A stretch of 64,000 bases of DNA from an uncultured Chloroflexia bacterium (GCA_963755995.1 CAVWLQ010000002.1:129612-193611); one strand, 5' to 3'; numbered from the stretch's first letter, positions 89 through 47,289 are shown. Numbers and translations: made by a program. Notes: generated by a model from the letters alone, not told the origin.

Positions 89-478
89 GTGGCCTCTGTC
101 CTGATCCGCGACCGCACCGGCGCCGGGCGGCCCGTCTCGTCGTTCACGATCCCGGACCTGCCGGATCGGATCACCATCCGCGAGCTGATCCGGATCCGCG
201 TCCGCGACGAGGTGGCGCGTCACAACCTGCACCCGACCGAGCCGTTCCACGGGCTGGTCGCCCCCACCGAGGTCGAGGTCGCCCTCAACGGCCCGCGTCG
301 GGAGCCGAAATGGGTGGATTGGGAGGCGCAGGCGGCGGTCGCCGTCAAGGCATTCGAGCGCAACGGCTTCTTCATCCTCGTCGATCAACGCCAGGCGGTG
401 TCGCTCGACGACGAAGTCGACCTGACCGCCGCCGCGGACGTCACCTTCGTGAAGCTGGTCCCCCTGGTCGGCGGTTGA
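89..478 (+). CDS. Hypothetical 129-aa protein ending in -VGG; possible beta-grasp / ubiquitin-like (MoaD/ThiS-like C-terminus)
   Basis: ORF-track GTG start at 89 is preceded by an in-frame stop at 74-76. C-terminus NGFFILVDQRQAVSLDDEVDLTAAADVTFVKLVPLVGG resembles MoaD/ThiS tails that end in GG. Its stop overlaps the next gene start (GTTGA). Confidence 0.55.
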   Translation: MASVLIRDRTGAGRPVSSFTIPDLPDRITIRELIRIRVRDEVARHNLHPTEPFHGLVAPTEVEVALNGPRREPKWVDWEAQAAVAVKAFERNGFFILVDQRQAVSLDDEVDLTAAADVTFVKLVPLVGG

Positions 479-2994
479 GGGACCTTCCGAACCTCGTCCG
501 CGCCGCCATCGCCTCGGCGAGCGGCGACCCCGTGTCGAAGCATCGTGCGCGAGCCGAGCCGTACCTGAGCACGCTCCCCGGCCAGCCGCAGGGGGGTGGC
601 TCGTCGTTCGTCATCGGCCCAGGTGATCACTGGCTGTTCACCGTCAAGAAGCAGCCCTGGTACCGGGAGTTCATGGACGCGCCCGACGCAGACCGCGTTT
701 CCCTCGGGATCGCCCTGCTCGACGGGATGAACGCCCGGGACCTCGACCAGTTCAGCGCATTCGCTGCCCCGACGGTGCTCTCCGGATTGGCTCGTCGGGT
801 TCCCGGGCACGACGAGGACGACCGCCACCTCGTCCTCGGTTTGGCGAAGCGCATCGTCGATCGCGACCGGTGGCACCAGGTCGAGAGCGTCATGTACGCG
901 GCGGCCGTCCTCGAGCGCGCCGCATCGCTCGGCGATCGGATCGACGTCCACGAGGACGAGATCCGCGAGATCCTCGACACGCTCTCCGTCCGCGGCTCGA
1001 TCGCGGCCAGCGACGAAGGTCGGATCCGGTCGCGGCTCCTGCGGCTCATCGGGCAGACGACCGCGATGTCCCGGCTCATCGATCGCGGCGATACGTGGGG
1101 CGTCGACCTCCTGGCGTACCTCGAGAGCGCGCCGGACGCGTCCGTGCTCGAGCCGCTCCTGCTCCATCTCGCGGAGGCGACGTCCGTGTCGCCGACGCAG
1201 CGCTGGAAGGCGCGCACGAAGGAGCTGCTGTCGGCCGGGCACGCCGAGGGCCTCATCCGGCACATGGTCGACGCGTCGTTCGACGCCCGATCCCTGCAGC
1301 GTCGGGCCCTCGACGCGTCACCGTTCCAGCCGGCCAACGCGAGCCTCGTCCGCGGCGCCTACTGGGCTGCCGCCGTGGGCCGGTGGGAGTGGGTCGCGGA
1401 GACGCTCGGGAGGGCCGGTCTGCACTGGGCCTTGTCGGGTCGCAACGACAACTACGCGCGCGACCAGCGGCTGGCGAACACGACCGTCGCCCTCCTGGCC
1501 GACCTCGGCACGCCGGAAACGCTCGTCGCCCTCGGGCGGATCCAGGCCAAGGTCCGGAACCGGAACGTCGCGAAGTCCGTGGCCGTGGCGCTCGATCGCG
1601 CGGCCATGGCCGCGGGGATGACCGCGTCGGAGCTGCTCGAGCTCGCGGTGCCGCGCATGAACCTCGACGACGAGGGGCGCCGCGAGATCGTGGTCGGCCC
1701 GGGCATCGCGCTGCTCGCCGTCGGGCCGGGTGGCGACGCCACGCTCGAGTGGAGCGTGGGTGGCCGCGTCTCGGCAGCCGTGCCCAAGGCGGTGCTCGAC
1801 GCTGACAAGACGGGGGTCACGGCCGCGAAGACGGAGCTCAAGGAGCTGCGCAAGGCGCTGTCGGTCGAGCGCGGCCGCCTCGAGGACCTGCTGGTCGAGG
1901 AGCGCACCTGGGCCTACCCGGACTGGGTGGAGCGCTATCGACGCCACCCGCTGACCGCTGCGGTCGCGGCACACCTCATCTGGCGCTTCCAGGTCGGCGA
2001 GCGGTGGCTTGCCGGGATCACGGATGGGGATGGGGTGACCAGCGTGGATGGATCGCCGATCGAGCTCGGGCCGTTGACCCGTGTCGCCGTCTGGCATCCG
2101 ATCCACGCGACCCCCGAGGAGATCAGGGCGTGGCGGACGTTCCTGCTCGAGCGCGGGGTGCGGCAGCCGTTCAAGCAGGCGTTCCGCGAGGTCTACCTGC
2201 TCACCCCGGCCGAGGAGGCGACCGAGGTCTACTCGAACCGGTTCGCCGGGCATGTCCTCGACTACCCGGTCGCTCGCGCGCTGATGGGGGCGCGGCGTTG
2301 GGGGACCAACTTCCTCGGGCCGTTCGACGGCGGGTACGAGGGCATCGCCAAGCGCGAGTTCCGAAGCGTTGGCGTCCGGGCCGAGTTCTACCACGATGCG
2401 ATCGAGGGAGCCGACGACGACCTGGGCGCCGTCGCGCACTGCACGACGGACCAGGTTCGCTTCGTCCGGCTCGGACGCGACGGTGACGTCCTGCCCCTGC
2501 GCGAGGTCCCGCCCGTGATCTTCTCGGAGGCGATGCGCGACGTCGACCTCTTCGTCGGGGTCGGCTCGATCGCGGCCGACGTGAACTGGCAGGATGCCGG
2601 GCGTGACCGGAACGCGCGGTTCGACGAGTACTGGGGACGCACGGCGTTCGGCGAGCTCACGGCCTCGGCCGAGAGCCGGCGGGAGGTCCTCGCCTGGATG
2701 CTTCCGCAGCTCGCGATCGCCGACCGGCTGACGCTCGAGGATCGCTACCTGCGGGTCCGGGGCGATCGGCGAACCTACCGGATCCACCTCGGATCCGCGA
2801 ACATCCTCATGGAGCCGAACGACGAGTACCTGTGCATCGTCCCGGGTCGAGGGCCGGTCTCGGCGGGCGCGACCCGGATCCTCCTGCCGTTCGACGACGA
2901 CCACCGCCTCTCGGTGATCCTCTCGAAGGCGATGCTGCTGGCCAACGACCACGCGATCACCGACCCGTCGATCGTCCGCCAGATCGATCGCTGA
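475..2994 (+). CDS. DUF4132 domain-containing protein (MolR-like C-terminal domain); start uncertain (TTG 475 or ATG near 673)
   Basis: One 2.5-kb uninterrupted frame. C-terminal motifs WRFQVGERW, FKQAFREVY and EYWGRTAFGEL are typical of DUF4132. TTG at 475 overlaps the upstream TGA (translational coupling). Confidence 0.7.
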   Translation: MRDLPNLVRAAIASASGDPVSKHRARAEPYLSTLPGQPQGGGSSFVIGPGDHWLFTVKKQPWYREFMDAPDADRVSLGIALLDGMNARDLDQFSAFAAPTVLSGLARRVPGHDEDDRHLVLGLAKRIVDRDRWHQVESVMYAAAVLERAASLGDRIDVHEDEIREILDTLSVRGSIAASDEGRIRSRLLRLIGQTTAMSRLIDRGDTWGVDLLAYLESAPDASVLEPLLLHLAEATSVSPTQRWKARTKELLSAGHAEGLIRHMVDASFDARSLQRRALDASPFQPANASLVRGAYWAAAVGRWEWVAETLGRAGLHWALSGRNDNYARDQRLANTTVALLADLGTPETLVALGRIQAKVRNRNVAKSVAVALDRAAMAAGMTASELLELAVPRMNLDDEGRREIVVGPGIALLAVGPGGDATLEWSVGGRVSAAVPKAVLDADKTGVTAAKTELKELRKALSVERGRLEDLLVEERTWAYPDWVERYRRHPLTAAVAAHLIWRFQVGERWLAGITDGDGVTSVDGSPIELGPLTRVAVWHPIHATPEEIRAWRTFLLERGVRQPFKQAFREVYLLTPAEEATEVYSNRFAGHVLDYPVARALMGARRWGTNFLGPFDGGYEGIAKREFRSVGVRAEFYHDAIEGADDDLGAVAHCTTDQVRFVRLGRDGDVLPLREVPPVIFSEAMRDVDLFVGVGSIAADVNWQDAGRDRNARFDEYWGRTAFGELTASAESRREVLAWMLPQLAIADRLTLEDRYLRVRGDRRTYRIHLGSANILMEPNDEYLCIVPGRGPVSAGATRILLPFDDDHRLSVILSKAMLLANDHAITDPSIVRQIDR

Positions 2995-3018
2995 CCGACG
3001 GGCCCGCCGAGCCGGTTC

Positions 3019-3942
3019 CTAGGACCTGGTGCGCAGCCCGGTGACCCAGTACTCGGTCGTCGTGATGCCGAACCGGGCGTTGACCACCCACAGCCGTCCG
3101 GCCTGGAGCGCACCGGTGGTCGGCACGCTGAGGTCAGCCGAGGTGAGCTCGGTGCGTGGGCGCGCGGACGTCAGCCGGAGGCCCAGTCGGAAGACTTCCA
3201 CCGCGCCGACGCCGGCCTCGTTGGCGTTGCGCACGACGAACAGGGTGCTGCCGCGGAGCTCCAGGCCGTCGCCGTTGGCGACGCTGACGCCGCCGGTCGA
3301 GATCGGCGTCGCGACCCCGGTCGCCTTGCTGACCCGGAACAGGCCGCCCGTGAACGAGTCGACGACGATGAGCCAGCCGCGCGCGGCGACGATGCCGTTC
3401 GCGTTGAACTGGCCGGCCTCGAACTCGATCCCGGTCAGCGGCAGCGTCGTGACGAGGCTTGCGTCGGGCAGCCGGCCGTGGCGCCCGAGCGGGATGACGT
3501 CCAGCCACGCGTTGTTCGAATCGGTCACGTACACGGCGTCGTGGGTCACGACGAGATCGTTGAGGAACCCGGCCGGCGAGAACGTGTACTGGCGCAGGAG
3601 CGTCCCGCGCGTCGCGTCATAGACGCGGACGGTCCCGGTCGGGCCACCGGCGACCCAGAGGCGATTCGCGCCGGCCTCGTACTCGACGCCCGCTGCCGCA
3701 CCGCCCCAGGCCGGCACGAGCACACCGCCGCGGCCGGTGCGGACGTCGCCCTTCCACACGCCACCGCCGGCCAGCGAGCCGACGTAGATCGTGTTGCCGC
3801 GTCCGGCCGTGATGCCCTCCGGCATCCAGCCGGACGGGAGGTCGATCCGCGACGGGAACGGCGACGATGCGGCGACGGGCGCGGCGAACGCGCCAAGGGC
3901 AAGGACAAGGGCGATCATGGCGGTCAGTGGTCGACGGAGCAT
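3019..3942 (-). CDS. Secreted beta-propeller protein (SMP-30/gluconolactonase/LRE- or NHL-like) with signal peptide
   Basis: Start at the internal Met MLRRPLTAMIALVLALGAFAAPVAASS (cleavable signal). Gly/Thr-rich repeated beta-strand motifs follow. Convergent with the DUF4132 gene. Confidence 0.6.
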   Translation of the reverse strand: MLRRPLTAMIALVLALGAFAAPVAASSPFPSRIDLPSGWMPEGITAGRGNTIYVGSLAGGGVWKGDVRTGRGGVLVPAWGGAAAGVEYEAGANRLWVAGGPTGTVRVYDATRGTLLRQYTFSPAGFLNDLVVTHDAVYVTDSNNAWLDVIPLGRHGRLPDASLVTTLPLTGIEFEAGQFNANGIVAARGWLIVVDSFTGGLFRVSKATGVATPISTGGVSVANGDGLELRGSTLFVVRNANEAGVGAVEVFRLGLRLTSARPRTELTSADLSVPTTGALQAGRLWVVNARFGITTTEYWVTGLRTRS

Positions 3943-4096
3943 CTCGAACCTCCCGTGACGCTGGCGGGGCGGCGACGGGCTGGTCGCCACCGGACGCGGT
4001 CATGGCGCTCTGGGTGCGCGTGTCTCCATGACCCTACGCCTGTAGGCGAGATGTGGATGTCGGCGAGCTCGGTGACAGCGGCGGCTTGCCCGCGAT

Positions 4097-4122
4097 TGAA
4101 CGTTTTCCGCGACCATCCCGTC
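4097..4122 (+). promoter_or_regulatory. ECF-type promoter (-35 GAAC, 17-nt spacer, -10 CGTC) about 9 nt upstream of the sigma gene ATG; near-leaderless
   Basis: attGAACgttttccgcgaccatccCGTCggtacgtcATG. Matches the GGAAC-N16/17-CGT architecture of autoregulated ECF promoters. Confidence 0.35.
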
Positions 4123-4130
4123 GGTACGTC

Positions 4131-4730
4131 ATGATCGAACACCCTACAGAGGTCATCCGGCCGGTGAGGCAGACGGCAGACCGCCCTGACGTGGCGCGCG
4201 CGGAGCTCTTCGCCCGCCTCGTCGATCGAGCAGCGCTCGACAAGGCCTATCGCTACGCCACCCTGGTCCTCGGCTCCCGATCCGACGCGGAGGATGCCAC
4301 CCACGACGCGGCCCTCAGCGCCTGGCGAAAGTTCGGCGACCTGCGCGACACCGCGAAGTTCGATGCCTGGTTCGGGAAGATCCTGGTCAACGCCTGTCGC
4401 GACCAGCTCCGGACCCGCGGTCGCACGCCGCTCAGTCTCGACGCCGAGCCCTTCTCAGCGACGGACTATGGCTACGCCCCGGCCCCGCGTGCGACCACCG
4501 ATCCGACCGACACCGTCGTCGATCGCGACGCGCTCGACCTCGCTCTGCGGACCCTCAGCCCGGACCAGCGCGAGGTCGTCGTGCTCCGTTACTTCTTCGA
4601 CCTGACCATCGAGGGGATCGCGGCACGGACCGGGGCTCGCGAGGGCACCGTCAAATCGCGACTCCACCACGCCCTGCGATACCTCAGGTCGGCGATCGAC
4701 GCGGCCAATGAAGGGAGCATCGACCGATGA
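4131..4730 (+). CDS. ECF (sigma-70 family) RNA polymerase sigma factor
   Basis: Region 2 (FDAWFGKILVNACRDQLR) and region 4 (LSPDQREVVVLRYFFDLTIEGIAARTGAREGTVKSRLHHALRYLR) motifs. Its stop overlaps the next ATG (ATGA). Confidence 0.8.
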   Translation: MIEHPTEVIRPVRQTADRPDVARAELFARLVDRAALDKAYRYATLVLGSRSDAEDATHDAALSAWRKFGDLRDTAKFDAWFGKILVNACRDQLRTRGRTPLSLDAEPFSATDYGYAPAPRATTDPTDTVVDRDALDLALRTLSPDQREVVVLRYFFDLTIEGIAARTGAREGTVKSRLHHALRYLRSAIDAANEGSIDR

Positions 4731-6139
4731 CGGACGACACTGCGTTCGAGCGAGACCTGCGCGCAGCGCTCGAGCAGCTCGGTCGCGAACCTGCGCCCGA
4801 GCGCCTCGTCTCCCGGGTCGCCGAGATCCCGAGCCGGCAGCCGTCGGCCCAGCGGCTCGAGGCGCGCTCATCCGGCCTGTCCCCCCGGTCGATCGGGTCG
4901 GCTCTCGGCCTCCTCGTCGCGGTCCTGGCCATCGCGGTCGTCGCGCTGATCCTGCGACCGACGGGTCCCGGGCCGGTCATCGTCGGCGGCTCCCCGTCGC
5001 TGGCGGTGGTCCCGTCCCCGAGCGCCTCGGAGGAGCCCTCGGTCGAGCCGTCGGCCAGCCCGTCGACCGAGCCCTCGGTGCAGGCGTCGGCCACGGCCAC
5101 CCCGGCCCCGACGGCGACCCCGAAGCCGGCGCAGCCCGTGCCGGCGGGGTTCGCACCGGTCTCGGCGACCTTCGTCTCGTCCAAGAACGGCTGGGTGCTC
5201 GGCGGCGTCGCGTGCGACACCGGCCTCTGTCCCGCCATCGCCCACACGACCGACGGCGGCGTGACCTGGGCGGCGATCCCGGCTCCGAAGACCACGATCG
5301 GCCGGAGCCCGGTCGACGAGACCGGCACCGGCATCTCTGCCCTCCGGTTCGCGAACGCCAAGGACGGCTGGGCGTACGGCCCGGAGCTGTGGACCACCCA
5401 TGACGGTGGCGCGACCTGGGCGAAGTCGTCGATCGCCGGCCTGCCCAAGGATTCGCCGGTCCGTGCCCTCGAGGCTGCCCGCGGGACGGTCCACGCGGTC
5501 GTCTATGACGGAGCGCAGGACTTCCGGATCGCGTCCGGCAAGGTCGCGACCAACGCGTGGACGCTGGCCTCCGTCCGTGTCCCGGTCGGTGCCGGGCCGG
5601 CCCCGCGCCCGCAGCTCGTCCTGTCCGGGACCGGCGGCTGGGTGCTGGAGAACGATCGGACCGTCGTCGCCGGGGCGCAGCTCCGCAACGGCTCCTGGGT
5701 GACCTGGAAGCCCGTCTGCCTGGACGTCGTCGGACCGGCGGTCCTGGCCGCTTCGAGCGCCAGCAACCTCGTCGCTGCGTGCGACGTCGGCGCCCTCGGG
5801 GATGCGAAGGGCGACCACCTGTTTGCCTCGCACGATGGCGGCGCGAGCTTCGCCGAGGTCGGTCCGGCCACCCCGCTCGACGCGGCCGCGGTCATCGCCA
5901 CGCCGGGTGTCGCCACGATCGTCATCGGTGGCACCGTCGCCGCCGGGTCCGAGCTCTTCACCTCGACCGACGGCGGGCAGACGTGGAGCGGCGTCCTGCC
6001 GGCCGCGGCCGCGACGTTCGCCGACCTCGGCTTCACGACCCCCACCCAGGGGATCGTGATCCAGACCGAGCAGGGCGGAACGAGCCGGATGCTGATGAGC
6101 CACGACGCCGGGAAGACCTGGACGCCGATCGCGTTCTGA
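4727..6139 (+). CDS. Anti-sigma factor: N-terminal cytoplasmic segment, one TM helix, Ser/Pro-rich linker, extracytoplasmic BNR/Asp-box (Ycf48-like) beta-propeller
   Basis: TM helix LGLLVAVLAIAVVALIL. Five S/T-x-D-G-G-x-T-W repeats: TDGGVTW, HDGGATW, HDGGASF, TDGGQTW, HDAGKTW. Translationally coupled to the sigma gene. Confidence 0.75.
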   Translation: MTDDTAFERDLRAALEQLGREPAPERLVSRVAEIPSRQPSAQRLEARSSGLSPRSIGSALGLLVAVLAIAVVALILRPTGPGPVIVGGSPSLAVVPSPSASEEPSVEPSASPSTEPSVQASATATPAPTATPKPAQPVPAGFAPVSATFVSSKNGWVLGGVACDTGLCPAIAHTTDGGVTWAAIPAPKTTIGRSPVDETGTGISALRFANAKDGWAYGPELWTTHDGGATWAKSSIAGLPKDSPVRALEAARGTVHAVVYDGAQDFRIASGKVATNAWTLASVRVPVGAGPAPRPQLVLSGTGGWVLENDRTVVAGAQLRNGSWVTWKPVCLDVVGPAVLAASSASNLVAACDVGALGDAKGDHLFASHDGGASFAEVGPATPLDAAAVIATPGVATIVIGGTVAAGSELFTSTDGGQTWSGVLPAAAATFADLGFTTPTQGIVIQTEQGGTSRMLMSHDAGKTWTPIAF

Positions 6140-6150
6140 GGTCGCATGCC

Positions 6151-7413
6151 ATGCGGATGACAGTCCTTGTCCTGATCGCGGCCCTCGTGGCCGGCTGCGG
6201 CGGATCGGGCGCGACCGGCTCGGTCGTCGGTTCGCCGTCGCAGTCGGTGGCCGAGCCCTCGACGTCCGCCGCGTCGTCGGTGAAGCCGTCGCCGACGGCC
6301 ACCGGCCCGAAGGCGCCGGCGACACACGTCCCGACGCCGACGTCGAGCGGGACCCAGACGTCGAGCTGCGTCACCCACACCCTGGCCGGCCTGTCGGAGG
6401 CGCAGCGGATCGGCCAGCTGTTCATGATCGGGCTGGCCAAGGACACGCTCGGGACCGCGGAGCGCTCCGCGATCGCGACGTACCACTTCGGCTCGGTGTC
6501 GTTCACGACGAAGACCGCGATCGGGGTCGCGCGCGTGCGGGCGATCACGGACGCCGTCCAGGCCCAGGCGACGTCGGCGGCGACCGGTGGCGTGCGCTTC
6601 TTCGTCGCGGCCAACCAGGAGGGCGGGCTCGTCCAGGCCCTGTCCGGTCCCGGGTTCGACACGATCCCGTCCGCGCTGAGCCAGGGGTCGCTGTCGACGT
6701 CGACCCTCAAGACACGGGCCGCGCGGTGGGGTGCCCAGCTGCGCGCGGCAGGCGTCAACCTCGATCTGGCACCCGTGGCGGACGTCGTGCCACCCGGGAC
6801 GGACGCGACGAACGCTCCGATCGGCAAGCTCAAGCGTGAGTACGCCCACACGCCGTCCGCGGCGGCCAGCCACGTGGTCGCCTTCATCGGCGGCATGAAG
6901 GCGGCCCATGTCGCGTCCACCGCCAAGCACTTCCCCGGTCTGGGCCGGGTCGTGGGCAACACCGACTTCACGGCGGACGTGACCGACACGGTCACGACCG
7001 TCGACGATCCGTTCCTCGCGCCGTTCGCGCGCGCGATCCAGGCCGGCGTGCCCGTCGTGATGGTCGCCCTCGCGACCTACGAGCGCATCGATCCCGACCA
7101 CCTTGCGGTCTTCTCGCCGGCCGTCATCCAGGGTCTCCTGCGCGACAAGCTCGGCTTCCACGGCGTCGTCGCCTCGGACAGCCTGGGCGCGACCGCGGTC
7201 AAGTCGATCACGCCGGCGGCGCGGGCGCTCGACTTCCTCGACGCCGGCGGCGACCTCATCGTGGTCAACGAGCTGAGCGTGGCCGACCCGATGGCAAAGG
7301 CGATCGCCGCACGGGCGGCCACGGACGCCGCCTTCCGGGCTCGCGTCGACGCTGCCGTCCTGAAGATCCTGGCCGCCAAGCACGCGGCCGGTCTCCTGGA
7401 CTGCTCCGGCTGA
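6151..7413 (+). CDS. Glycoside hydrolase family 3 beta-N-acetylhexosaminidase lipoprotein (NagZ/LpqI-like)
   Basis: Lipobox LIAALVAGCGG. GH3 motifs GQLFMIGL, KHFPGLGRV, FHGVVASDSL. Starts 12 nt after the anti-sigma gene. Confidence 0.8.
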   Translation: MRMTVLVLIAALVAGCGGSGATGSVVGSPSQSVAEPSTSAASSVKPSPTATGPKAPATHVPTPTSSGTQTSSCVTHTLAGLSEAQRIGQLFMIGLAKDTLGTAERSAIATYHFGSVSFTTKTAIGVARVRAITDAVQAQATSAATGGVRFFVAANQEGGLVQALSGPGFDTIPSALSQGSLSTSTLKTRAARWGAQLRAAGVNLDLAPVADVVPPGTDATNAPIGKLKREYAHTPSAAASHVVAFIGGMKAAHVASTAKHFPGLGRVVGNTDFTADVTDTVTTVDDPFLAPFARAIQAGVPVVMVALATYERIDPDHLAVFSPAVIQGLLRDKLGFHGVVASDSLGATAVKSITPAARALDFLDAGGDLIVVNELSVADPMAKAIAARAATDAAFRARVDAAVLKILAAKHAAGLLDCSG

Positions 7414-7420
7414 CCGACGG

Positions 7421-8098
7421 TCAGGCGGGATCGACCGCCAGGCCCAGCTCGTCGAGCGAATCGAGCAGCTCCGCCGGGTCGCGATAGACCCGGAAGGCGC
7501 CCGCCGCGCGAAGCTCGTCCTCGCCGTAGCCGCCGGTCAGCAACCCGACGCTGAGCATCCCGGCCCGCCGCGCGGCGAGCAGGTCCCAGACCGCATCGCC
7601 GACCACGTAGCAGTCGGCGATCGCGACTCCCAGCCGTTCCTGGCAGGCGAGGAACAGGTCCGGCTCCGGCTTGGCACGCAGGACGTCGCCCCGTTCGACG
7701 ACGACGAGGTCCGCAGGGACGTCCAAGGCGTCGAGCGACGCGTCGATCTCCGGCCGCCGGCCCGACGTCGCGATGCCGTGCACGATGCCGCTGCCGCGGA
7801 GGGTCGCCAGGAGCTCGATCGCGCCGGGCAGAGGCCGGCGTTCGGGCAGGATCTCGCGGAAGATCTCGCCGTGGCGCCGTTGGAGCATGGCCGACTCGTC
7901 GTCCGTCAGGCTCCGACCGATCTCGCGCGCGACGGCCCGGGCGAACAGGCCGCCGCTCATGCCGATCCGGCGGTGGATCCGCCAGCCGTCGACCGGGTGG
8001 CCGGCCTCGAGCAGCGCGCGCTGCCAGGCGAACACGTGCGCGTAGACGGTGTCCACCAGGGTCCCGTCCAGGTCGAAGATCAGGGCACGCATGCGCAT
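7421..8098 (-). CDS. HAD-superfamily hydrolase (beta-phosphoglucomutase/phosphatase-like)
   Basis: Motif I FDLDGTLVDT; C-terminal motifs VVGDAVWDL. Confidence 0.8.
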   Translation of the reverse strand: MRMRALIFDLDGTLVDTVYAHVFAWQRALLEAGHPVDGWRIHRRIGMSGGLFARAVAREIGRSLTDDESAMLQRRHGEIFREILPERRPLPGAIELLATLRGSGIVHGIATSGRRPEIDASLDALDVPADLVVVERGDVLRAKPEPDLFLACQERLGVAIADCYVVGDAVWDLLAARRAGMLSVGLLTGGYGEDELRAAGAFRVYRDPAELLDSLDELGLAVDPA

Positions 8099-8143
8099 CG
8101 AAGTATGGCTGCCCGTTGACGCCGCCGGATACGGGCGAGTATC

Positions 8144-9194
8144 GTGCTACCTGTGGATAGCAAGTTGCACGTTGGGACTGGGACGGACGACGTCGGACTC
8201 GTGGCGTCATGGCGGGCTGACGGCCGCGGCCTCCTGACGGTCGCTGCGCTCATCATCCTCGCGGCCGGCCTGTTCGCCTGGTTCCTCGCGATGACCGACC
8301 AGCTCCTGCCCCACGACCTCGCGTGGCTGACGATCTCCGAACGGGAGCTGCGGTCGATCGCCGGCGGGCGGCTGGTGCATTTCATGGCCCACGACCGCGC
8401 GGCGTTCGGCGGCACGCTCATCGCGATCAGCGTCCTGTACCTCTGGCTCGTGCGGTTCCCGCTGGCCGAGGGGCGCGCCTGGGCGTGGTGGCTGCTGGCG
8501 ATCGGTGGCGGTCTCGGCTTCCCGAGCTTCCTGAGCTACCTGGGAACGGGCTATCTCGACACGTGGCACGGGCTGGCGACGCTCGTGCTGCTGCCGCTGT
8601 TCATCCTCGGCCTGGCCGGCGCACGCGCAGGAGCTCCGGCCGCCGCTCGGGATCCGGGCGCTGCTGGTGCCCGGCGCACGGCCGCCGGTGTGGTCGCGCG
8701 CCTGGCTGGGGCGCGGGTTCCTCCTGCTCACGGGCTTCGGGATGCTCGTGGCGGGGCTCACGATCGTGACGATCGGGACGTTCGTCGTCTTCGTTCCCCA
8801 GGACCTGGTGTATCTCGGTCTCGACCGGGCCGCGCTCGACGCCATCGACCCGCGCCTCGTGCCGCTGATCGCGCACGATCGGGCAGGCTTCGGGGGTGGC
8901 CTCGCGACGGCCGGGCTGACGGTCCTCGTGGCGGTCTGGTGCGGGCGGCCCAGCCGTGCGCTGTGGGAGGCGCTGCTGATCGCGGGCGCGGCCGGGTTCG
9001 GCGCCGCGATCGGCGTCCACGGCCTGATCGGCTACCTCGACCTGTCCCACGTCGGACCGGCCATCGTCGGCGTCGGCACGTTCATCGCCGGGAATCGCGC
9101 TCAGCCGGCCATCGATGGTGCGCCCGCCGGCCGCGACCGGACCGACCGCCTAGGCGACCCTCAAGCCTGGCGGGTCGATGGCCTCCATTCGTGA
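8144..9194 (+). pseudogene. Membrane protein with an internal tandem duplication (two about 150-aa repeats); the repeats lie in different frames, so a frameshift sits near 8640-8670
   Basis: Repeat 1 (frame of 8144) LVHFMAHDRAAFGGTLIAISVLYLWLV and repeat 2 (frame of 8667) LVPLIAHDRAGFGGGLATAGLTVLVAVW. The frame of 8144 has no stop until 9277 and reads Arg-rich junk after 8640. Confidence 0.45.
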
Positions 9195-46614: not shown

Positions 46615-47289
46615 TTATCGATCTTCGCCGGCGGGCACCGGCATCATGGCATCGGCGGCAGGGCCGAACTCGGCCCCGAGACCGGTCCGCAGCCGCTGGA
46701 GCGCCCGGCGCGTCCGCGTCTTGACCGTGCCGAGCGGCCAGCCCAGTCGGGCCGCGATCTCGGCCTGCGAGAGCTCTTCCTGATAGGCCAGGAGGATGAC
46801 CGTCCGCTCGTCCTCCGGCATGACCGCGACCGCCTGTCGGATCGCGTCGCGCAGCCCCACCGCGGCGAACGCGTCCTCCGGACTGGCCGGTGCGCTCGCG
46901 CCGGCGATCACCGACCCGCTCGACGCCAGCCGCTCGAGGGCCTGCGTCGCATCCTCGTCGGTGCCGGCCGCCGAGGAGAGATCGATGAGGTTGGGGCGGC
47001 GACCGGCCGCGCGGAGGCGGTCGATCGCCCGGTTGCGCGCGATCGCATGCAGCCACGCACCCAGCGATCCCGTAGCGGGATCGAAGGTTTCGGCGCGGTT
47101 CCACAGGATGAGGAATGTCTCCTGCACGACTTCCTCAGCTGTCCCTCTGTCAGATGTGAGGCGATAGGCGGCGGCGAAGATCGCCGATCCGTAACGGTCA
47201 TAGAGCGTCTCGAGGGCGGCCTCCGACCCTGCCGCCATCCGGAGGACGACCACAGCGTCATCGGTCGACCCCTCTCGACCATTCGTCAT
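46615..47289 (-). CDS. ECF sigma factor (SigK-like)
   Basis: Region 2 ETFLILWNRAETFD; region 4 LSQAEIAARLGWPLGTVKTRTRRALQRLR. Confidence 0.8.
   Translation of the reverse strand: MTNGREGSTDDAVVVLRMAAGSEAALETLYDRYGSAIFAAAYRLTSDRGTAEEVVQETFLILWNRAETFDPATGSLGAWLHAIARNRAIDRLRAAGRRPNLIDLSSAAGTDEDATQALERLASSGSVIAGASAPASPEDAFAAVGLRDAIRQAVAVMPEDERTVILLAYQEELSQAEIAARLGWPLGTVKTRTRRALQRLRTGLGAEFGPAADAMMPVPAGEDR

What the first reader, a model, noticed from the sequence alone, without database searches (positions are those of the whole stretch)
4097..7413. ECF sigma / BNR-propeller anti-sigma / GH3 NagZ lipoprotein operon with an ECF-type promoter
Three translationally coupled or tightly spaced genes: an ECF sigma, a single-pass anti-sigma whose extracytoplasmic part is a 5-blade BNR/Asp-box (Ycf48-like) propeller, and an LpqI/NagZ-like GH3 beta-N-acetylhexosaminidase lipoprotein. 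A GAAC-N17-CGTC motif sits 9 nt before the sigma ATG. The arrangement suggests a self-contained envelope sensing module in which a glycan-binding propeller controls a sigma factor that co-expresses a peptidoglycan-recycling glycosidase.
Basis: partly seen in the sequence, partly recalled or inferred. Interest (0 to 1): 0.6.

Follow-up and report, generated by a model that had tools for sequence, protein, structure and literature searches.

The report
Propeller-sensor sigma switch driving a glycosidase
An uncultured soil/freshwater Chloroflexota bacterium carries a self-activating gene switch (an ECF sigma factor held by a membrane protein with a seven-bladed propeller outside the cell). In this lineage the switch also drives a cell-surface sugar-cleaving enzyme. 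It is a new family of a well-known kind of switch, not a new principle.

Summary
Three co-directional genes are present: an ECF sigma (4131-4730), a single-pass membrane protein (4727-6139, overlapping the sigma stop by 4 nt), and a GH3 lipoprotein (6151-7413, 11-nt gap). A TTGAACGTT-N13-CGTC motif sits upstream.

By itself GAAC-N16-18-CGTC is barely above chance in this window (25 matches against 15 expected). However, the extended motif lies upstream of the sigma gene in 53 of 53 related loci, with the start codon 8-9 nt after CGTC. Autoregulation from a probably leaderless promoter is therefore well supported.

Three corrections are needed:
- **Propeller.** It has seven blades and is Ycf48-like, with five Asp-boxes. 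It is not five-bladed.
- **Cytoplasmic part.** It is only two short helices and matches no known anti-sigma domain.
- **GH3.** It lacks the NagZ Asp-His dyad (N-T-D replaces D-S/T-H). Its closest solved relative, 5bu9, is uncharacterised, so "NagZ/LpqI" is not established.

The conserved unit is the sigma/anti-sigma pair. GH3 follows it only in the window's close relatives. Even so, GH3 genes of the same subfamily carry the same promoter on their own in at least three or four other lineages, so GH3 is a recurrent but non-universal target.

This is a new variant of a known kind, of moderate interest.

The parts
4096..4122 (+). ECF-type promoter: -35 TTGAACGTT (4096-4104), 14-nt remainder of the spacer, -10 CGTC (4119-4122). 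The sigma ATG starts 9 nt after the last C, which implies a leaderless or near-leaderless mRNA.
   Evidence: Sequence. The same motif and geometry occur in 53/53 related loci. PWM score is 30.4, the only strong site in the 64-kb window.
4131..4730 (+). ECF (group 4) sigma factor, 199 aa
   Evidence: Pfam Sigma70_r2, r4_2 and r4, with no region 3. Best NCBIfam hit is TIGR02983 SigE-fam_strep, below cut-off. Nearest solved structures are M. tuberculosis SigL/SigE at 1e-13.
4727..4900 (+). Cytoplasmic N-terminal segment of the putative anti-sigma (residues 1-58). It has two predicted helices (5-20, 25-33) with the conserved motif FERExR..L....PAPERLVARV..IP.
   Evidence: Alignments A1/A2, AF2 model. 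No Pfam or PDB match. This segment, not the propeller, co-occurs with the sigma gene.
4907..4951 (+). Single transmembrane helix (residues 61-75)
   Evidence: AF2/DSSP helix 61-75 over a hydrophobic stretch. Position conserved in alignment A1.
4952..5143 (+). Disordered Pro/Ser/Thr/Ala-rich extracytoplasmic linker (residues 76-139)
   Evidence: pLDDT below 50 over 76-106. Length and sequence vary in A1; some relatives have a ~140-aa inserted domain here.
5144..6139 (+). Seven-bladed Ycf48/BNR-like beta-propeller (residues 140-470) with five Asp-boxes (174-181, 224-231, 368-375, 413-420, 458-465) and two conserved Cys pairs (163/168, 331/352). Coordinates include the stop codon.
   Evidence: AF2 pLDDT above 90. 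Foldseek best whole-domain match is Ycf48, TM(target) 0.65-0.70. Pfam BNR 41 bits. Invariant Cys residues. Five Asp-boxes in 112/120 homologues.
6151..7413 (+). GH3 N-terminal-domain-only lipoprotein, 420 aa. Lipobox VAGC with Cys16 at 6196-6198. Motif KHFPGLG-RVVG-NTD at 6925-6966. Predicted nucleophile Asp343 at 7177-7179.
   Evidence: Pfam Glyco_hydro_3 at 2.7e-43. Best PDB hit 5bu9 at 2.7e-76. N270-T271-D272 invariant in A3. Motif is NTD in 102/120 homologues, HTD in 13, D[ST]H in none.

Best explanation
This is an autoregulated ECF sigma / membrane anti-sigma signalling pair. It belongs to a family that is widespread, and present in more than one copy in at least some MAGs, in Candidatus Limnocylindria (Chloroflexota). 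In this lineage the operon has acquired a GH3 lipoprotein gene as a third cistron.

Proposed mechanism:
1. The sigma is held at the membrane by the short two-helix cytoplasmic N-terminus of the single-pass protein. This step is inferred.
2. The extracytoplasmic seven-bladed Ycf48/BNR-like propeller, held on a disordered Pro/Ser/Thr linker, receives an unknown envelope signal. This step is inferred.
3. The sigma is released by proteolysis or a conformational change. This step is inferred.
4. The free sigma transcribes its own operon from TTGAACGTT-N13-CGTC. The promoter is shown by conservation. The transcript begins at or within a few bases of the start codon, which is inferred from the fixed 8-9-nt distance.
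5. In this genome the transcript also encodes a surface-anchored GH3 exo-glycosidase. The enzyme is related to NagZ but has N-T-D in place of the Asp-His acid/base dyad. It is therefore probably a hydrolase with a carboxylate acid/base, and its substrate is unknown.

In other lineages GH3 genes of this subfamily are wired to the same promoter as stand-alone genes. GH3 is therefore a recurrent output of the switch, not a fixed part of it.
For: - **Pairing.** A sigma of this family lies immediately upstream of the propeller protein in about 55 of 80 genome loci. Independent gene calls show the same 4-nt overlap. The overlap is 4 nt in 40 of 48 pairs and 11 nt in 7.
- **The sigma follows the N-terminal segment, not the propeller.** Stand-alone lipoprotein or signal-peptide versions of the propeller in Dormibacterota and Actinomycetota have no such sigma beside them.
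- **Topology and fold.** Shown by the AF2 model, the Foldseek matches and the conserved Cys pairs.
- **Promoter.** Present in 53/53 loci, with conserved flanking bases that were not selected for. The start codon (30 ATG, 18 GTG) lies 8 nt (43 loci) or 9 nt (5 loci) after CGTC. It is the only strong site in the window.
- **GH3 co-transcription.** The gap is 11 nt, with no sigma-70-like promoter and no terminator anywhere in 3900-7700.
- **GH3 as a target elsewhere.**
  - In about 0.9 Mb around the pairs, the only strong non-sigma site (L004, score 22) sits directly upstream of a GH3 lipoprotein gene with the NTD motif.
  - In 452 kb of GH3-centred metagenome loci, 3 of the 4 sites scoring 12 or more lie directly upstream of the GH3 start codon. 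They have the same 6-9-nt geometry and a lipoprotein signal.
- **GH3 motif.** Shown. The NagZ signature is taken from bioRxiv 10.1101/2022.04.25.489410.
Against: - No direct evidence shows that the N-terminal segment binds the sigma. It matches no Pfam anti-sigma domain and no solved anti-sigma. A complex prediction could not be run.
- The transcription start is not mapped, so leaderless initiation is inferred from geometry alone.
- GH3 is next to the pair on the same strand in only 2 of about 55 loci. Only 3 to 5 of 67 analysable GH3 upstream regions carry the motif. For most family members the output genes are unknown.
- GH3 promoters on contigs that lack the pair (L086, L088, L114) could be served by a different ECF sigma with a similar specificity.
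- The signal sensed by the propeller is unknown.
Confidence: 0.65

Rival explanations
1. The sigma/anti-sigma pair is real, but GH3 is a passenger. A local rearrangement placed it behind the pair in one lineage. It is read through without any functional connection to the sensed signal.
For: GH3 is on the same strand downstream only in the window and L001. In L009 a 68%-identical GH3 lies 1.2 kb away on the opposite strand with no motif. Relatives at 47-58% identity have proline dehydrogenase, aldose epimerase, a molybdopterin oxidoreductase or a GH25 muramidase instead.
Against: Same-subfamily GH3 lipoprotein genes carry the family's promoter directly upstream, with the same promoter-to-start geometry, in L004, L088, L114 and more weakly L086. 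Three of the four strong sites in 452 kb of GH3 loci fall there. That pattern is hard to explain without selection for this regulatory link.
Confidence: 0.2
2. The propeller protein is not an anti-sigma factor. It is a sigma-dependent, co-translated envelope protein, such as a scaffold, an enzyme or a positive regulator, and the sigma is controlled by something else.
For: The cytoplasmic part is only about 35 structured residues and matches no anti-sigma domain family or structure. The same propeller exists as a stand-alone lipoprotein in other phyla. It has weak similarity to BNR-type glycosyl hydrolase models.
Against: The sigma co-occurs strictly with the conserved N-terminal two-helix segment plus TM helix, and not with the propeller. 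Translational coupling through ATGA/GTGA overlaps is the typical sigma/anti-sigma arrangement. Two-helix anti-sigma domains are known: class II, CnrY and NepR (PMC6101532). One-TM putative anti-sigmas without a recognised domain are the commonest case across ECF groups (PMC7826278).
Confidence: 0.1
3. The conserved upstream motif is an operator for a dimeric repressor or activator, since GAACGTTC is palindromic. It would not be the promoter read by the adjacent ECF sigma.
For: AACGTT is a palindrome. In 17 of 53 sites the core is the perfect 8-mer GAACGTTC.
Against: The second block, CGTC, is invariant at a fixed 17-18-nt spacing and a fixed 8-9 nt from the start codon. This is promoter geometry and not that of an inverted repeat. 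GAAC...CGTC is the classic ECF -35/-10 pair. No sigma-70-type promoter is present in the region.
Confidence: 0.05

Closest known systems
Classical membrane-anchored ECF sigma/anti-sigma pairs (e.g. RpoE-RseA, SigW-RsiW, M. tuberculosis SigL-RslA, SigK-RskA)
   Same: A two-domain sigma, a co-transcribed single-pass anti-sigma with N-in topology, an autoregulated GAAC/CGT-type promoter, and an extracytoplasmic sensor domain.
   Different: The cytoplasmic part is about 35 structured residues in two helices, not the class I three-helix bundle plus a fourth helix. It has no zinc-binding HxxxCxxC motif and no Pfam match. The sensor is a Ycf48/BNR-type propeller, for which full-text searches found no described anti-sigma precedent.
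Class II anti-sigma domains (CnrY, NepR)
   Same: A minimal two-helix sigma-binding element, as described in PMC6101532. The AF2 model here also shows two short helices before the TM segment.
   Different: No sequence similarity was detected. CnrY signals through a separate periplasmic partner (CnrX, from own knowledge), whereas here a large sensor domain is fused to the same chain. The binding mode was not tested.
Ycf48/HCF136 photosystem II assembly factor
   Same: A seven-bladed propeller with Asp-box-like repeats. It is the best whole-domain structural match, with TM(target) 0.65-0.70, and gives weak sequence hits.
   Different: Identity is 14-19%, and the Pfam PSII_BNR score of 23.9 is below the 27 cut-off. 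The domain here is fused to a TM helix and a sigma-binding segment, or is a lipoprotein in other phyla. The host is a Limnocylindria-type Chloroflexota. There is no indication of any photosystem role.
NagZ / LpqI GH3 beta-N-acetylglucosaminidases
   Same: The GH3 N-terminal (beta/alpha)8 domain, the KHFPG(L)G motif, and an aligned nucleophile Asp. Like LpqI and B. subtilis NagZ, it has a lipoprotein signal.
   Different: The D-(S/T)-H acid/base dyad is N-T-D in this family: 102/120 homologues, with 13 showing H-T-D. The NagZ NCBIfam model scores below cut-off. LpqI (6gfv) is a distant hit at 5e-12, against 2.7e-76 for the uncharacterised 5bu9.
SigV-RsiV and SigI-RsgI (cell-wall-sensing anti-sigmas of Firmicutes)
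   Same: Anti-sigmas whose extracytoplasmic part senses a cell-wall-related cue (lysozyme, or gaps in peptidoglycan via a disordered region) and whose regulons act on peptidoglycan (PMC9044953, PMC9732909, listed). Here there is also a long disordered linker. The neighbours or targets include GH3, a GH25 muramidase and an Acyl_transf_3 protein.
   Different: There is no homology. The analogy is thematic only. Only GH3 has promoter evidence; the GH25 and acyltransferase neighbours lack the motif.

Membership tests
ECF (group 4) sigma-70 factors | Only regions 2 and 4 present, with no region 3 or 1.1 | tested here: met
   Pfam Sigma70_r2 (residues 36-99), Sigma70_r4_2/r4 (133-186) and Sigma70_ECF. 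No r3 hit. Length 199 aa. TIGR02937 sigma70-ECF scores 82.9 against a cut-off of 42.9.
ECF (group 4) sigma-70 factors | Autoregulation from a conserved, group-specific promoter with a GAAC-type -35 and a CGT-type -10 | tested here: met
   TTGAACGTT-N13-CGTC lies upstream of the sigma gene in 53/53 loci. Use by this sigma is inferred, not shown.
SigE-family (TIGR02983; S. coelicolor SigE-like, ECF39 neighbourhood) | Score above the curated model cut-off | tested here: not met
   TIGR02983 is the best NCBIfam hit, but at 95.7 bits against a cut-off of 141.55.
A named ECF group of the ECF Hub classification (Casas-Pastor et al. 2021) | Match to a group HMM, plus the group's anti-sigma type and promoter | not testable with these tools
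   The group HMMs and supplementary tables are not available. The main text mentions neither BNR/propeller anti-sigmas nor Chloroflexi.
Anti-sigma factor, class I ASD (RseA/RsiW/RskA/ZAS) | Three-helix bundle plus a fourth helix of about 80-90 residues (PMC6101532), with a Pfam zf-HC2/RskA-type match | tested here: not met
   Only two helices (5-20, 25-33) precede the TM helix at 61-75. No Pfam hit at E up to 10. No PDB hit.
Anti-sigma factor, class II ASD (CnrY/NepR) | A two-helix clamp that embraces sigma2/sigma4 | tested here: inconclusive
   The helix count fits. There is no sequence similarity.
Anti-sigma factor (functional definition) | Encoded next to and co-transcribed with its sigma, in a conserved pairing | tested here: met
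   About 55 of 80 loci show the pairing. The overlap is 4 nt in 40 of 48 pairs. The pairing follows the N-terminal segment.
Anti-sigma factor (functional definition) | Binds and inhibits the sigma | not testable with these tools
   Needs a binding or genetic assay, or a multimer prediction.
BNR/Asp-box beta-propellers | Repeated S-x-D-x-G-x-T-W motifs in a propeller fold | tested here: met
   Five motifs in the sequence. Pfam BNR scores 41 bits against a cut-off of 27. Five motifs in 112/120 homologues. The model shows a seven-bladed propeller.
Ycf48/PSII_BNR family | Score above the Pfam/NCBIfam cut-off | tested here: not met
   PF14870 scores 23.9 against 27. NF010237 scores 31.1 against 326. 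There is fold similarity only.
NagZ-type GH3 beta-N-acetylglucosaminidase | GH3 N-terminal domain with KH(F/I)PG(H/L)G | tested here: met
   PF00933 scores 149 bits. KHFPGLG is at residues 259-265.
NagZ-type GH3 beta-N-acetylglucosaminidase | D-(S/T)-H acid/base dyad four residues after the glycine (motif KH(F/I)PG(H/L)GX4D(S/T)H; 10.1101/2022.04.25.489410) | tested here: not met
   N270-T271-D272 aligns with D-S-H of 6k5j and 4zm6. It is invariant in A3. None of 120 homologues has D[ST]H.
NagZ-type GH3 beta-N-acetylglucosaminidase | Score above the NCBIfam equivalog cut-off (NF003740) | tested here: not met
   115.2 bits against a cut-off of 207.
NagZ-type GH3 beta-N-acetylglucosaminidase | Catalytic nucleophile Asp | tested here: met
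   D343 in GVVASD aligns with the D of GVVVTD/GVIITD in 6k5j and 4zm6. It is invariant in A3.
Bacterial lipoprotein | N-terminal signal peptide ending in the lipobox [LVI][ASTVI][GAS]C | tested here: met
   MRMTVLVLIAALVAGC, with Cys16. 93 of 99 full-length homologues have a lipobox-like motif in the first 50 residues. Lipidation itself was not tested.

The most novel reading that the evidence does not exclude
The pair defines an undescribed ECF group with a new minimal (class II-like or novel) anti-sigma domain fused to a Ycf48-type propeller. The propeller senses a cell-wall-derived glycan or peptide whose level is set by the very enzymes the sigma induces. The GH3 N-T-D subfamily would then be a catalytically distinct surface exo-glycosidase, and together they would form a feedback loop for wall turnover in monoderm Chloroflexota.
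Probability: 0.15. Interest if true: 0.65.

Novelty: new variant of a known kind. Interest (0 to 1): 0.45.

Why it matters
ECF sigma/anti-sigma pairs are a major class of bacterial signalling systems, but the signals are known for only a few groups. This family offers four things.

- **A clean test system.** The promoter is unusually sharply defined, and the pair is compact enough to be orthogonal. It comes from a phylum with no genetic models.
- **An unrecognised anti-sigma module.** A two-helix N-terminus is joined to a propeller sensor that also exists as a free lipoprotein in other phyla. This makes it a natural case of sensor-domain recruitment.
- **At least one identifiable output gene.** The GH3 gene gives a starting point for finding the signal.
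- **An annotation warning.** Thousands of GH3 proteins labelled "beta-N-acetylhexosaminidase", including PDB 5bu9, lack the NagZ catalytic dyad, so that annotation is unsafe for them.

None of this overturns current understanding.

Tried and rejected
- **Known anti-sigma domains.** Pfam at E up to 10 and PDB phmmer on the N-terminal 80 residues gave nothing meaningful.
- **Literature precedent.** Searches for an ECF anti-sigma with a BNR, Ycf48 or beta-propeller sensor returned no paper holding the terms together. The ECF re-classification paper has no text hits and no held supplements.
- **Other neighbours as targets.** GH25 muramidase, Acyl_transf_3, molybdopterin oxidoreductase and phosphoesterase neighbours were checked for the promoter. 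All best scores were below about 5, so they were rejected as direct targets.
- **Pair next to GH3 relatives.** None of 80 metagenome loci carries the pair.
- **Other signals in 3000-8500.** No Rfam family, sigma-70 promoter or intrinsic terminator was found.
- An early frame error (6152 instead of 6151) was corrected.

Full report
**What is in the sequence**

The region holds three co-directional genes on the + strand, with GC3 of 0.82-0.94.

- **Gene 1, 4131-4730 (199 aa).** It has Pfam Sigma70_r2 and Sigma70_r4 and no region 3, so it is an ECF sigma. Its best NCBIfam model is the Streptomyces SigE subfamily TIGR02983, but below cut-off (95.7 against 141.55 bits). The general sigma70-ECF model passes. 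The nearest solved sigmas are M. tuberculosis SigL and SigE at 1e-13.
- **Gene 2, 4727-6139 (470 aa).** It starts inside the sigma stop codon (ATGA).
- **Gene 3, 6151-7413 (420 aa).** It follows after 11 nt, with a GAGG 9 nt before the ATG. It begins MRMTVLVLIAALVAGC, a lipoprotein signal. It carries only the GH3 N-terminal domain, at 2.7e-43.

A convergent HAD-family gene ends 7 nt after the GH3 stop. No sigma-70-type promoter, intrinsic terminator or Rfam family is found in the region.

**The second protein**

An AlphaFold2 model built on 80 homologues (mean pLDDT 84, pTM 0.74) gives the following layout:

- two short helices (residues 5-20 and 25-33)
- a disordered stretch
- one transmembrane helix (61-75)
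- a disordered Pro/Ser/Thr/Ala linker (76 to about 139)
- a beta-propeller (140-470) with pLDDT above 90

The roughly 28 strands group into seven four-stranded blades. Five blades carry an Asp-box: TTDGGVTW, THDGGATW, SHDGGASF, STDGGQTW and SHDAGKTW. Two blades have none.

Foldseek against the PDB gives Ycf48, a seven-bladed propeller, as the best whole-domain match, with TM-score 0.65-0.70 on the target. GH74 xyloglucanases and sortilin Vps10 domains give partial matches. Sequence scores for the Ycf48 families are below cut-off, so this is fold resemblance and not family membership.

Two Cys pairs (163/168 and 331/352) are invariant, which fits an extracytoplasmic location. The cytoplasmic part has a well-conserved motif, F-E-R-E-x-R-x-x-L ... 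P-A-P-E-R-L-V-A-R-V-x-x-I-P. It matches no Pfam family at E up to 10 and no solved anti-sigma.

**Who carries it, and what travels with what**

Homologues come almost entirely from uncultured Chloroflexota annotated as Candidatus Limnocylindria/Limnocylindrales. A profile search of 1.84 billion cluster representatives finds 824 clusters at E up to 1e-30. In one-genome-per-species GTDB contigs, 382 stretches encode a relative, and I analysed the best 80.

- A sigma of the window's family lies immediately upstream of the propeller gene in about 55 of these loci.
- In 48 pairs that could be delimited exactly, the sigma stop and the next start overlap by 4 nt in 40 and by 11 nt in 7.
- Independent public gene calls show the same overlap.
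- Several MAGs hold two or three such pairs; one, for example, holds L009, L016 and L025.

The remaining loci come from Dormibacterota, Acidimicrobiia, other Actinomycetota and a few Chloroflexota. They encode the same propeller behind a lipoprotein or secretory signal and have no sigma of this family beside them. The sigma therefore co-occurs with the N-terminal two-helix segment plus TM helix, and not with the propeller. This is the strongest available argument that the N-terminus is the sigma-binding part.

**The promoter**

GAAC-N17-CGTC is at 4098-4122, and the sigma ATG begins 9 nt after the last C.

The bare pattern is not significant in the window: 25 matches against 15.2 +/- 3.9 expected. 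However, the same pattern lies just upstream of the sigma gene in 53 of 53 loci that have upstream DNA. The 54th locus is cut off by the contig end.

Bases outside the search pattern are also conserved, giving (A/G)TTGAACGTT(T/C)-N13-(T)CGTC(A)G. The spacer is 17 nt in 45 loci and 18 nt in 8. The start codon (30 ATG, 18 GTG) is 8 nt (43 loci) or 9 nt (5 loci) after CGTC. The encoded N-termini are conserved from that codon. This geometry leaves no room for a leader, so I infer a leaderless or near-leaderless mRNA, which needs 5'-end mapping.

A weight matrix from the 53 sites scores the window's site at 30.4. The next best site in all 64 kb scores 8.7.

**Is GH3 part of the system?**

By adjacency, mostly not.

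- GH3 follows the pair on the same strand only in the window and in L001 (anti-sigma 72% identical). Judging by shared contig lengths, it also does so on a few short contigs of relatives at 80% identity or more.
- Relatives at 57-58% identity have proline dehydrogenase or a convergent aldose epimerase instead.
- Other sub-clades have:
  - a convergent molybdopterin oxidoreductase (13 loci);
  - a GH25 muramidase with SH3 and TIG domains (6 loci, in either orientation);
  - a phosphoesterase lipoprotein upstream (10 loci);
  - an Acyl_transf_3/HGSNAT membrane protein upstream (4 loci).
- None of those neighbours has the promoter.
- From the GH3 side, none of 80 metagenome loci encoding 50-67%-identical GH3 proteins carries the pair.

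The promoter tells a different story.

- In about 0.9 Mb around the pairs, the only strong matrix hits other than the sigma promoters were L065 (score 34, upstream of a truncated pair) and L004 (score 22).
- The L004 site, TTGAACGAAT-N13-ACGTC, is followed after 9 nt by ATG AAG ..., encoding a lipoprotein signal (LAIAGC) and a GH3 with the same NTD motif. It lies 3.4 kb upstream of that genome's pair. That gene has two frameshifts in a long-read MAG, so it may be an assembly error or a pseudogene.
- In 452 kb of GH3 loci, only four sites score 12 or more. Three of them lie directly upstream of the GH3 start codon, with the same spacing and a lipoprotein signal: L114 at 25.6, L088 at 21.4, and L086 at 17.6 with GCAC in place of GAAC.
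- Upstream regions make up only a few per cent of the scanned sequence, so this placement is very unlikely by chance.
- Of 67 GH3 loci with analysable upstream DNA, 3 score 12 or more and 5 score 5 or more.

GH3 of this subfamily is therefore a recurrent target of this promoter type. It is linked by operon fusion in the window's lineage and by its own promoter elsewhere. It is not a constant member of the module.

**What the GH3 is**

Its best solved relative, by a wide margin, is 5bu9 (2.7e-76), a structural-genomics entry from Beutenbergia. I found no functional study of it. M. tuberculosis LpqI (6gfv) is a distant hit at 5e-12.

NagZ-type enzymes are defined by KH(F/I)PG(H/L)GX4D(S/T)H, where the Asp and His form the acid/base dyad (10.1101/2022.04.25.489410, citing Vocadlo 2000 and Litzinger 2010). 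Here the sequence is KHFPGLG-RVVG-N-T-D. N270 and D272 align, without gaps, with the Asp and His of 6k5j and 4zm6.

N-T-D is invariant in a 16-sequence family alignment. It occurs in 102 of 120 homologues, 13 have H-T-D, and none has D-(S/T)-H. The nucleophile Asp (D343) is conserved. The NagZ equivalog model scores 115 against a cut-off of 207.

The protein is thus a NagZ-related GH3 that fails a defining catalytic feature. I infer a hydrolase using Asp272 as a carboxylate acid/base, acting outside the membrane, with an untested substrate. The same paper shows that even dyad-bearing members of this clade can have unexpected activities, such as beta-glucuronidase.

**How it most likely works**

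- **Shown:** gene order, coupling, domain architecture, the conserved promoter and its geometry, and the recurrent GH3 promoter link.
- **Inferred:**
  - the two-helix N-terminus sequesters the sigma, comparable in size to the class II two-helix clamps CnrY and NepR (PMC6101532);
  - the propeller receives an envelope cue and the sigma is then released;
  - the freed sigma transcribes its own leaderless operon, and with it GH3.

The ligand is unknown. Asp-boxes do not imply glycan binding. Wall-active neighbours (GH3, GH25, an acyltransferase-3 protein) give a thematic hint of cell-wall involvement, but only GH3 has regulatory evidence.

**Comparison with what is known, and novelty**

Functionally this is an ordinary ECF sigma/anti-sigma switch. 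According to the 2021 re-classification, one-TM putative anti-sigmas without a recognised domain are the commonest situation across ECF groups (PMC7826278).

The following appear to be undescribed:

- this particular combination of a minimal N-terminal segment with a Ycf48/BNR propeller sensor
- its distribution in Limnocylindria
- the sharply conserved leaderless promoter
- the link to an N-T-D GH3 subfamily

Full-text searches found no paper combining ECF or anti-sigma terms with BNR, Ycf48 or beta-propeller. I could not test membership of a numbered ECF group.

I rate it a new variant of a known kind, with interest about 0.45. It is useful to ECF and CAZyme specialists and is a clean system to test, but it is not surprising in principle.

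Noticed in passing
L010, L017, L028, L045, L051, L057 (gene next to the anti-sigma): In one sub-clade the gene beside the pair is a secreted GH25 muramidase with SH3_3 and TIG domains. It occurs in either orientation and has no ECF-type promoter upstream. In L044, L050, L053 and L061 an Acyl_transf_3/HGSNAT membrane protein sits just upstream of the sigma. Both are wall-glycan-active families.
   Followed up: partly
L008, L024; proteins P0097, P0111 (about 600 aa): Some anti-sigma homologues carry an extra ~140-residue domain between the linker and the propeller, starting with a Cys. It has no Pfam match.
   Followed up: partly
L061 5420-7107: A propeller protein has a degenerate version of the N-terminal motif, but the sigma gene is missing from its syntenic position (compare L053). 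This may be an orphaned or decaying anti-sigma.
   Followed up: no
L004 1924-3600: The GH3 gene that carries its own ECF-type promoter is split over two reading frames (two frameshifts). This is either a long-read assembly error or a pseudogene.
   Followed up: no
L009, L016, L025 (one MAG); also L029/L030, L045/L055, L051/L065: Several MAGs hold two or three paralogous pairs with essentially the same -35/-10 motif. Insulation between the paralogues would then have to come from the anti-sigmas and not from the promoters.
   Followed up: no
window 46672-47220 (-): A second, unrelated ECF sigma gene (30% identical to the first; Sigma70_r2 and r4) lies in the same 64-kb window.
   Followed up: partly
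window 3019-3990 (-): The divergent upstream gene encodes a 323-aa secreted protein with a signal peptide. It has no significant Pfam match apart from a faint NHL-repeat hit, so it may be another small propeller. It is not conserved next to the pair in L001.
   Followed up: partly
window 310-2994 (+): An 894-aa protein with DUF4132 and DUF7737 domains lies upstream. It is unrelated to the finding.
   Followed up: no
PDB 5bu9 and GH3 homologues P0121-P0240: Sources annotate this GH3 subfamily as 'beta-N-acetylhexosaminidase' although none of the 120 closest homologues has the NagZ D-(S/T)-H dyad. Thirteen have H-T-D instead of N-T-D. Two further Cys residues (73 and 418) are nearly invariant, which suggests a disulfide tying the N- and C-terminal ends together.
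   Followed up: partly
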